DNA from: Sulfolobales archaeon
GTDB lineage: Archaea > Thermoproteota > Thermoprotei_A > Sulfolobales > NBVN01
Assembly (NCBI GenBank): GCA_038844925.1
Contig: JAWBQY010000001.1
Location: forward strand, 152,629 to 216,628
Direction of reading: 5' to 3'
Length of the DNA stretch: 64,000 nt
Part shown: piece after piece, positions 6,221 through 6,422 of the stretch
Layout: each line of letters starts with the position of its first letter
Position numbering within the stretch: position 1 is the stretch's first letter
Translations under genes and position numbers: made by a program
The notes under the pieces: generated by a model
What the model was told of the DNA's origin: nothing
Seen by the model: the letters and a program-made list of their open reading frames with translations, nothing else
Database searches by the model: none

Positions 6221-6297
6221 GGGCCCGTCGTCTAGCTGGTTAGGACGCCGCCCTCACGCGGCGGAGGTCCTGGGTTCGAATCCCAGCGGGCCCACCA
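6221..6297 (+). tRNA. tRNA-Val (anticodon CAC), CCA encoded, no intron
   Basis: Hand-folded cloverleaf: acceptor GGGCCCG/CGGGCCC, anticodon stem CCGCC/GGCGG with loop CTCACGC, T arm CTGGG-TTCGAAT-CCCAG, then discriminator A and CCA. Confidence 0.9.
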
Positions 6298-6422
6298 GAA
6301 CTCTCCAACTTCTCACACGGACCTACATAAACGAACCTCTTCCTTCCGTTGACGTAGATGACTTTATAGAGGTAGTAGCGTCCCTTAACCCTCATAACTG
6401 TGTAGAACAAGTTATTACCCAT
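6240..6422 (-). mobile_element. SSV-type integrase N-terminal fragment (intN) reading antisense into tRNA-Val
   Basis: 60-aa ORF MGNNLFYTVMRVKGRYYLYKVIYVNGRKRFVYVGPCEKLE..., whose last 19 or so codons are antisense to the tRNA 3' half. The KGRYYxYK...NG...YVGP pattern resembles the SSV1 integrase N-terminus as I recall it. No C-terminal catalytic part follows. Confidence 0.6.

What the first reader, a model, noticed from the sequence alone, without database searches (positions are those of the whole stretch)
6221..6422. tRNA-Val(CAC) overlapped by an intact-looking SSV-type integrase N-terminal fragment
A 60-aa ORF starts at 6422 and runs antisense through the 3' half of the tRNA gene. Its sequence MRVKGRYYLYKVIYVNGRKRFVYVGPCEKLE resembles the N-terminus of the SSV1 integrase as I recall it (KGRYYVYKLEYENG...RYVGP). 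In SSV-type integration the attP site lies inside int. Insertion into a tRNA gene therefore leaves intN abutting the tRNA and intC at the far end of the element. Here only intN is present. No intC and no second direct copy of the tRNA 3' half occurs anywhere in the window. This looks like the footprint of an element that was lost or rearranged.
Basis: partly seen in the sequence, partly recalled or inferred. Interest (0 to 1): 0.55.

Follow-up and report, generated by a model that had tools for sequence, protein, structure and literature searches.

The report
Leftover integrase fragment beside tRNA-Val
A short gene fragment running backwards through a valine tRNA gene is the leftover front end of a virus/plasmid integrase whose element has since been lost, a well-known kind of scar in heat-loving archaea.

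Summary
tRNA-Val(CAC) is at 6221-6297 (+). A 60-aa ORF at 6240-6422 (-) runs antisense through the tRNA's 3' 58 nt. Residues 1-41 are the N-terminus of an SSV-type ("suicidal") tyrosine integrase: 85% identical to residues 1-41 of a full-length 309-aa integrase, and just above the Pfam PF07935 cut-off.

No integrase catalytic part (intC) and no extra att copy occur in the 64 kb. The adjacent 1.1 kb is AT-rich, ORF-free DNA followed by reverse gyrase.

- The fragment is not fully intact. A 1-nt deletion at about 6302-6307 shifts it out of the family's reading frame across the tRNA.
- A second, more decayed intN relic (about 48417-48546) abuts tRNA-Val(GAC), in inverted orientation.
- The tRNA-intN locus lies inside a 4-kb segment flanked by perfect 46-bp inverted repeats. 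This segment occurs in both orientations among same-species genomes.

Related uncultured Sulfolobales/Desulfurococcaceae genomes carry similar solo intN relics at tRNA-Val CAC, GAC and TAC genes, in various stages of decay. One genome (L046) shows the complete architecture. Solo intN fragments at tRNA genes are already described for Sulfolobales, so this is a new example of a known kind. Interest is low; the inversion polymorphism is the more unusual by-product.

The parts
6221..6297 (+). tRNA-Val(CAC), intact, CCA encoded
   Evidence: ARAGORN; Rfam RF00005, 65.1 bits
6250..6297 (+). att-equivalent: the 3' part of the tRNA (acceptor 3' strand, T arm, variable region, 3' side of the anticodon stem). 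This is the stretch duplicated by integration in relatives.
   Evidence: Extent inferred from the 48-nt att' left next to intN in L011/L025 and from the 45-nt perfect direct repeat in L046. It is inferred, not demonstrated, in the window itself, where only one copy exists.
6240..6422 (-). 60-aa ORF = solo int(N) relic. Codons 1-41 are integrase-derived. Codons 42-60 are an out-of-frame antisense read of the tRNA.
6302..6307 (-). Site of a 1-nt deletion (GGAGGAG -> GGAGAG on the coding strand). It shifts the frame relative to in-frame relatives.
   Evidence: DNA alignment A3. The native frame WWARWD(S/L)NPGPPPRK is confirmed in the partitioned intN/intC pair of L046 and in the full-length P0015.
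6423..6480 (-). Remnant of the int promoter region: a TATA-like GCATAAAC box flanked by the inverted motif TTATAACCCAC ... GGATGGGTTGTAA
   Evidence: Alignable with the upstream regions of the full-length int genes in L013 and L030 and of other relics. Promoter function is inferred.
6481..7500 (.). AT-rich (24-35% GC) stretch with no ORF above 80 aa, lying between the relic and the 46-bp repeat. Possibly the last remains of the element; origin unproven.
   Evidence: Composition. ORFs. No similarity to element genes, phages or plasmids. Highest within-species diversity of the locus, 15.8 variable sites per kb.
7501..7546 (+). Right arm of the perfect 46-bp inverted repeat, resembling an IS200/IS605 right end / tnpB 3' region
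3481..3526 (-). Left arm of the 46-bp inverted repeat; overlaps the stop codon of the Csl4-like gene
3527..7500 (.). Invertible segment: Csl4-like gene, Dph2, L10e, tRNA-Val(CAC), intN relic and AT-rich spacer. Present in both orientations in same-species assemblies.
48417..48546 (+). Second, decayed int(N) relic. It keeps a promoter-motif remnant, has lost codons ~1-15, and has a 1-nt deletion with an in-frame stop. It retains the native frame at the tRNA junction.
   Evidence: the repeat finder I3, 93% over 45 nt to relic 1; sequence; alignments
48547..48623 (-). tRNA-Val(GAC), intact, abutted by relic 2

Best explanation
The ORF is a solo int(N) relic. A plasmid- or virus-like element encoding an SSV-type ('suicidal', type I) tyrosine integrase once integrated into the 3' half of tRNA-Val(CAC).

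In this family attP lies inside the int gene. Recombination with the tRNA therefore split int. The promoter and first ~41 codons (intN) ended up reading antisense into the reconstituted tRNA. The catalytic part (intC) plus a duplicated tRNA 3' half ended up at the far end of the element (shown for relatives, inferred here).

The element, intC and the second att copy were later removed by ordinary deletion and decay (inferred). The ~200 bp next to the essential tRNA gene survived longest, because deletions reaching into the tRNA are counter-selected.

The relic is non-functional as an integrase part. It lacks a catalytic domain and has a -1 frameshift at the junction. It most likely has no function today. 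The same process happened at tRNA-Val(GAC) in this genome and at tRNA-Val genes of related genomes, so tRNA-Val is a recurrent target of this element family.
For: 1. Identity of the fragment.
- PF07935 hit.
- 85% identity over residues 1-41 to the full-length integrase P0015, which carries PF16795.
- 79% identity to the N-terminus of the full-length integrase in L013, which carries PF16795 (E 1e-46) plus PF07935.
- The upstream promoter region is also alignable with those intact genes.

2. Complete architecture in a relative.
- L046 has a 45-nt perfect direct repeat of the tRNA-Val 3' part.
- intC starts inside it, ~10.5 kb of element follows, and intN reads antisense into the tRNA.

3. Absence of the rest.
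- No intC by an 82-sequence HMM on six frames.
- No third att copy.
- No remnants of the genes that neighbour int in related elements.
- Reverse gyrase and other core genes follow.

4. Signs of decay.
- A -1 frameshift in relic 1.
- Relic 2 is truncated and frameshifted.
- Start codons are lost in L009 and L011/L014, L012 has frameshifts, and L021 has a stop.

5. Literature.
- Solo intN fragments are tabulated at several tRNA genes of S. islandicus (PMC3718332).
- The split-gene mechanism is described in PMC8371274.
Against: - No copy of the element or intC of this exact lineage was found, so the original integration is reconstructed from relatives, not observed.
- The ORF, its start codon and promoter region are well preserved, and the relic is fixed in all 17 same-species assemblies.
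- dN/dS between copies is low, 0.05-0.2. This would also fit retention by selection. It is equally expected if the copies diverged while inside active elements.
- Only 64 kb of the genome could be inspected, so an intC displaced elsewhere is not excluded.
Confidence: 0.85

Rival explanations
1. The element is not lost but displaced. A chromosomal rearrangement separated intN from intC plus att', which now lie elsewhere in the genome, outside the 64-kb window.
For: - Synteny with the outgroup (L009/L021) breaks exactly on the element side of the relic: pilus-like genes there, reverse gyrase here.
- The locus is demonstrably prone to rearrangement, as shown by the 4-kb inversion between 46-bp repeats.
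- Inversions between integrated suicidal-integrase elements are documented in Thermococcales (PMC8371274).
Against: - The demonstrated inversion carries tRNA, intN and the AT-rich spacer together, and has no intC or att at either outer junction.
- Many related genomes show solo intN with 77 bp to 1 kb of leftover DNA. This fits gradual deletion better than repeated displacement.
Confidence: 0.08
2. The solo intN with its promoter has been co-opted. One version is a small Int(N) multimerisation-domain protein that poisons incoming integrases. Another is a source of antisense RNA over tRNA-Val. In either case it is kept by selection.
For: - Intact start codon, 40 codons and promoter motif, with as little as 77 bp of upstream DNA retained in L004/L024.
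- Fixed in the species.
- dN/dS of 0.05-0.2 between copies, and 5 synonymous against 0 non-synonymous differences between L007 and L015.
- Int(N) is the multimerisation part of SSV integrases, and int(N) of integrated elements is transcribed in S. solfataricus (PMC8371274).
Against: - Many copies are plainly decaying: lost start codons, frameshifts, stops and a 5' deletion, including the second copy in this same genome.
- The low dN/dS is expected from history inside active integrase genes.
- Within-species data have no power, with one variable site (V31I) in 125 nt.
- The C-terminal third of the ORF is out-of-frame tRNA antisense.
Confidence: 0.05
3. An active integrated element is still present, with intC lying beyond the window.
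For: Only that the window ends 57 kb to the right and the genome was not fully searched.
Against: - The DNA to the right is reverse gyrase, CTP synthase, RNA polymerase subunits and other core genes. These are syntenic with relatives.
- intN is frameshifted relative to the functional frame.
- The next tRNA-Val 3' half is inverted and belongs to an intact tRNA gene.
Confidence: 0.02

Closest known systems
Solo 'intN fragments' overlapping tRNA genes in Sulfolobales chromosomes (She et al. 1998/2001, as cited in PMC3119797; tables in PMC3119797 for Acidianus hospitalis W1 and PMC3718332 for Sulfolobus islandicus)
   Same: A short N-terminal integrase ORF reads antisense into the 3' half of an intact tRNA gene. 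The element and intC are gone. It is interpreted as the last trace of a captured, degenerated element.
   Different: - The host is an uncultured Sulfolobales/Desulfurococcaceae-like lineage.
- The target is tRNA-Val, with all three isoacceptors hit across relatives.
- The integrase lineage is closest to integrases in Thermofilaceae and other metagenome-assembled genomes (MAGs), not to characterised SSV or pXQ1 integrases.
- The relic lies inside a small invertible segment.
SSV1/SSV2/SSV5 fusellovirus integrases (type I, 'suicidal' tyrosine recombinases; PF07935 N-terminus plus PF16795 catalytic domain)
   Same: - N-terminal motif (V)KG(K/R)YY(L/V)Y...G.(K/R).....(I/V)G.
- attP inside the gene, matching a tRNA 3' half read antisense.
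- Partition into intN and intC on integration.
   Different: - Only 34% identity to the SSV5 N-terminus.
- Here only the first 41 codons survive; there is no catalytic domain.
- The related intact elements (L013, L030, L046) look plasmid-like (primase-helicase, P-loop ATPase) rather than fuselloviral.
Integrated element at tRNA-Val(TAC) in L046 (GCA_054042825.1), found here
   Same: The same att (tRNA-Val 3' part, antisense), the same orientation logic, and the same reading frame across att as most relics.
   Different: - L046 is complete: a 45-nt direct repeat, intC with PF16795, and about 10.5 kb of cargo.
- Its N-domain is more divergent from the window's than P0015's is.

Membership tests
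SSV-type (type I, suicidal) tyrosine integrase | C-terminal catalytic domain (PF16795, Phage_integr_3) with the catalytic Tyr | tested here: not met
   The ORF is 60 aa, with no PF16795 hit. An HMM of 82 family members finds no catalytic domain in any frame of the window. The ORF is therefore a fragment of a family member's gene, not an integrase.
SSV-type (type I, suicidal) tyrosine integrase | N-terminal SSV1 D-335-like region (PF07935) | tested here: met
   PF07935: E 1e-4, 22.9 bits against a cut-off of 22. 85% identity to residues 1-41 of the full-length P0015. 34% identity to the SSV5 Int N-terminus.
SSV-type (type I, suicidal) tyrosine integrase | att site inside the int reading frame, matching part of a tRNA gene | tested here: met
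   The ORF overlaps tRNA-Val(CAC) by 58 nt. The full-length relatives P0015/L030 and L013 carry a tRNA-like stretch at the same position of the gene.
Integrated element of the SSV-type (intN ... intC flanked by direct att repeats) | intC plus a second, direct att copy at the far end of an element | tested here: not met
   No intC and no direct att copy in 64 kb. Core genes follow after 1.1 kb. The complete form is seen in L046.
Solo intN relic at a tRNA gene (Sulfolobales 'gene capture' remnants) | intN overlapping an intact tRNA, element absent, with signs of pseudogenisation | tested here: met
   Intact tRNA. Element absent. A -1 frameshift relative to the family frame. A sister relic in the window is truncated.
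IS200/IS605 element (for the 46-bp repeats) | tnpA and/or tnpB gene with left and right end hairpins | tested here: not met
   Only a 46-bp stretch matches the tnpB 3' end / right-end region of pMGB1 and intergenic sites of archaeal viruses. There is no room for a transposase next to either copy.

The most novel reading that the evidence does not exclude
The 4-kb block holding tRNA-Val(CAC), the intN relic and the L10e-Dph2-Csl4 genes may be a recurrently flipping DNA segment.

Its perfect 46-bp inverted repeats derive from an IS200/IS605-type end. The flipping might be driven by a dedicated enzyme, such as a TnpB/TnpA-related activity or an integrase acting with relaxed specificity, rather than by rare homologous recombination.

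The retained int promoter and intN could then be part of what the inversion modulates, for example antisense transcription into tRNA-Val or read-out towards different neighbours.
Probability: 0.07. Interest if true: 0.6.

Novelty: new member of a known kind. Interest (0 to 1): 0.25.

Why it matters
For annotation, the 60-aa ORF should be labelled an integrase N-terminal pseudogene fragment and marker of a past integration, not a hypothetical protein.

For biology, it extends the 'intN scar' phenomenon to an uncultured Sulfolobales lineage. It also identifies tRNA-Val (all isoacceptors) as a hot spot for one family of split-gene integrases. That family has two att designs: the antisense 3' half and the sense 5' half of the same tRNA.

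The by-product may be worth following up in its own right. It is a population-level inversion polymorphism of a 4-kb core-gene block between 46-bp IS-derived repeats. It is a clean natural example of short-repeat-mediated chromosome flipping in a hyperthermophilic archaeon.

Tried and rejected
- **Word-indexed homologue search with the 60-aa ORF.** It returned only four short ORFs. An exhaustive HMM search with the first 41 residues found seven representatives, one of them full length.
- **IMG/VR viral contigs.** No relative found.
- **GenBank phages and PLSDB plasmids by DNA.** Nothing matched the relic or the AT-rich spacer; only the 46-bp repeat matched.
- **PDB sequence search with the N-domain.** Nothing found. 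Only C-terminal domains of these integrases are solved (PMC8371274).
- **tblastn with P0008 and with the L013 intC.** No intC in the window or in the antisense-type loci. This was superseded by the HMM search.
- **Remnants of the genes that flank int in related elements** (272-277-aa P-loop protein, 184-188-aa protein). None found in 6300-7600 or 47700-48560.
- **dN/dS among relic copies.** Computed but judged uninformative for present-day selection, because the copies may have diverged inside active elements.
- **Single integrase-mediated inversion.** I considered that the two inward-facing intN relics at inverted tRNA-Val genes mark one such inversion. Rejected: one element yields only one intN. 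The two relics differ in sequence and decay state. The GAC locus is collinear with relatives.
- **46-bp inverted repeats as att sites.** Rejected: they are not tRNA-like and match IS200/IS605 ends.
- **Rfam.** It gives only tRNAs in the window.

Full report
**1. The observation**

ARAGORN places tRNA-Val(CAC) at 6221-6297 on the + strand. Rfam's tRNA model scores it at 65 bits. It overlaps the 3' 58 nt of the tRNA.

The host is an uncultured 'Sulfolobales archaeon' known only from metagenome-assembled genomes (MAGs). The same locus occurs on several hot-spring metagenome contigs.

**2. Is it an integrase N-terminus?**

Yes.
- Pfam PF07935 (SSV1 ORF D-335-like) matches residues 11-38 at E 1e-4, 22.9 bits against a cut-off of 22.
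- A PHROG integrase family matches weakly.
- An exhaustive profile search of 1.84 billion representatives with the first 41 residues found only seven relatives. One is a 361-aa integrase (P0008) with the PF16795 catalytic domain.
- A metagenome scan found a 338-aa full-length integrase (L013) carrying PF16795 (E 1e-46) plus PF07935.
- Searching with that protein returned 81 SSV-type integrases, including SSV5 Int and many chromosomal intC fragments.
- Among them is P0015, a 309-aa integrase from a Thermofilaceae MAG. Its first 41 residues are 85% identical to the window ORF, and the similarity stops exactly at residue 41.
- The DNA upstream of the start codon is also alignable with the upstream regions of the intact int genes of L013 and L030. 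It contains a TATA-like box between the inverted motifs TTATAACCCAC and G(T/A)GGGTT(A/G)TAA. So promoter plus codons 1-41 were inherited as one piece.

**3. What a complete version looks like**

Locus L046 (GCA_054042825.1) carries a full integrated element of this type at tRNA-Val(TAC).
- A 45-nt perfect direct repeat of the tRNA 3' part lies at the far end.
- An intC ORF (P0027, PF16795) begins inside that repeat, reading WWARWDLNPGPPPRK|SYTMPF....
- About 10.5 kb of element follows.
- An intN ORF then reads ...RVGWWARWDLNPGPPPRKGG... antisense into the intact tRNA.
- Two further partial att copies upstream mark older integrations.

This is the architecture described for type I 'suicidal' integrases (PMC8371274).

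**4. What is present and absent in the window**

The intN runs right-to-left, so the element must have lain at coordinates above 6422.
- 6423-7500 is AT-rich (24-35% GC against about 41%), with no ORF above 80 aa.
- It has no similarity to phage or plasmid records, or to the genes that neighbour int in related elements.
- Reverse gyrase starts at 7575, followed by CTP synthase, RNA polymerase subunits and other core genes.
- A profile HMM from 82 integrases, run on all six frames, finds no catalytic-domain remnant anywhere in the 64 kb.
- The only other copy of the tRNA 3' half is the intact tRNA-Val(GAC) gene at 48547-48623, on the opposite strand.

The element, intC and the second att are therefore gone from this region.

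**5. The fragment is not fully intact**

Most relatives read the tRNA antisense as W(W)AR(W/G)D(S/L)NPGPPP. These include the full-length P0015/L030, the L046 intN/intC pair, and the relics in L007-L011 and L014-L018. The second relic in this window does the same.

The window ORF instead reads SSGGPAGIRTQDL. The coding strand has GGAGAG where the others have GGAGGAG, a 1-nt deletion at about 6302-6307. The relic in L004/L024 has an independent -1 at the same junction. An int gene re-formed by excision from this intN would be out of frame.

**6.

The repeat finder shows that the similarity between the two tRNA-Val genes continues 45 nt beyond the tRNA, at 93% (6303-6347 against 48496-48540).

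The stretch at about 48417-48546 (+) is a decayed intN abutting tRNA-Val(GAC). It keeps traces of the promoter motif. It has lost roughly codons 1-15. It has a 1-nt deletion that creates a stop. It still has the native frame at the tRNA junction. Between it and the preceding intron-type tRNA there is only about 0.7 kb of non-coding DNA.

**7. Relatives**

Every antisense-type intN recovered from reference MAGs and metagenomes abuts a tRNA-Val gene (CAC, GAC or TAC) or a 48-nt att remnant.
- The GAC locus of two other genomes (L008, L012) is syntenic with the window's and also carries an intN.
- The CAC locus of a Desulfurococcaceae MAG (L009/L021) shares the hydrogenase flank and carries an intN.
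- Except for L007/L016, whose intN is preceded by element-like genes (MazE-, BrxL-ATPase-, helicase- and PriX-like), the intN lies 77 bp to about 1 kb from ordinary-looking, non-element genes. The 77-bp case is L004; the others were judged from gene calls or synteny.
- Decay states vary. Start codons are lost in L009 and L011/L014. L012 has frameshifts. L021 has a stop.
- Copies cluster by genome rather than by tRNA locus. For example, both window copies share RKRF, and L008/L010 share YRVVYVGGRK. This suggests repeated lineage-specific integrations, or gene conversion, rather than one ancient event.
- dN/dS between copies is 0.05-0.2. This is expected if they diverged inside working integrase genes, so it does not show present selection.

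A sister group (L013, L006, L019, L020, L022) uses the 5' half of tRNA-Val read in sense as attP.

**8. Explanation**

The best-supported reading is the classical one: a solo int(N) scar. The literature describes exactly this. [quoted passage not shown] Solo intN fragments are tabulated at several tRNA genes in S. islandicus strains (PMC3718332).

- Shown here: the homology, the absence of the partner parts, the frameshift, and the parallel relics.
- Inferred: the original integration event and the deletion route.

Rivals are displacement of intC by rearrangement (about 8%), co-option of Int(N) or its promoter (about 5%), and a still-active element (about 2%).

**9. An unexpected property of the locus**

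The tRNA, the relic, the AT-rich spacer and the L10e-Dph2-Csl4 genes lie between perfect 46-bp inverted repeats at 3481-3526 and 7501-7546.
- In same-species MAGs (99.2-99.8% nucleotide identity), this 3,974-bp block is inverted in L031-L034 and L036. It has the window's orientation in L001/L002, L035 and L037-L045. The breakpoints lie inside the repeats.
- The flipped genome L036 is closer to window-type genomes (7-10 differences in 3.7 kb) than to the other flipped genomes (23 differences). So the inversion arose at least twice, or was moved between lineages by recombination.
- One 4,034-bp contig ends in both repeats, as expected if both orientations coexist in a sample.
- The repeat matches the tnpB 3' end / right-end region of an IS200/IS605 element on pMGB1, and intergenic sites of several Sulfolobales viruses. 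No transposase gene is adjacent.
- The inversion moves tRNA and intN together. It does not account for the missing intC, but it shows the neighbourhood is recombinationally active.

**10. Verdict**

This is a new example of a known kind of feature, of low general interest (0.25). The inversion polymorphism and the clade-wide targeting of all tRNA-Val genes are the only mildly unusual aspects.

Noticed in passing
window 3481-3526 and 7501-7546, bounding 3527-7500: Perfect 46-bp inverted repeats flank a 4-kb block holding Csl4, Dph2, L10e, tRNA-Val, the intN relic and the AT-rich spacer. The block is found in both orientations among same-species MAGs, and the inversion arose at least twice, or was moved between lineages by recombination. 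The repeat resembles an IS200/IS605 right end / tnpB 3' region and recurs in Sulfolobales viruses.
   Followed up: partly
window 48417-48546 (+), next to tRNA-Val(GAC) at 48547-48623 (-): A second, decayed intN relic. It is 5'-truncated and frameshifted, and it faces the first relic across 42 kb of core genes.
   Followed up: yes
window 11840-12004 and 48244-48406; L007:141-264: A repeat of about 160 nt (73-79% identity) of unknown nature. One copy ends about 10 nt before the promoter remnant of relic 2. Another lies upstream of CTP synthase. There is no Rfam match.
   Followed up: partly
window 11603-11648 and 25566-25611: A perfect 46-nt direct repeat, GGGGTTCAGCTCTGATATAGGTTTATATTGGTTGGTTTCATTGCCT, in two intergenic regions 14 kb apart (family D3). 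It weakly resembles part of the 160-nt repeat.
   Followed up: no
window 47643-47740 (-) and 25962-26062 (+): Two long, probably intron-containing tRNA genes. ARAGORN calls the first 'tRNA-???' and misses the second. Rfam scores them 44 and 46 bits.
   Followed up: no
window 6423-6480 (-); L013:9915-9994; L030:1810-1887: A conserved inverted motif, GTTATAACCCAC ... GTGGGTTATAA, brackets a TATA-like box just upstream of the int start codon, in both intact integrase genes and relics. It is a candidate operator of the int promoter.
   Followed up: no
L013, L006, L019, L020, L022: A sister group of integrases has the same N-domain but uses an attP that is the 5' half of tRNA-Val read in sense. The integrated intN then reads through the whole tRNA in the sense direction. 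L020 is a ~9.3-kb contig that begins inside the 3' end of intC and ends with intN and the tRNA, so the element is roughly 10 kb.
   Followed up: partly
L011:8629-8800 and L025:2-142: An intN is followed by a 48-nt att remnant and then by unrelated DNA carrying genes of unknown function. This suggests that a different element later inserted at the same att site and cut the old intN off from the tRNA body.
   Followed up: partly
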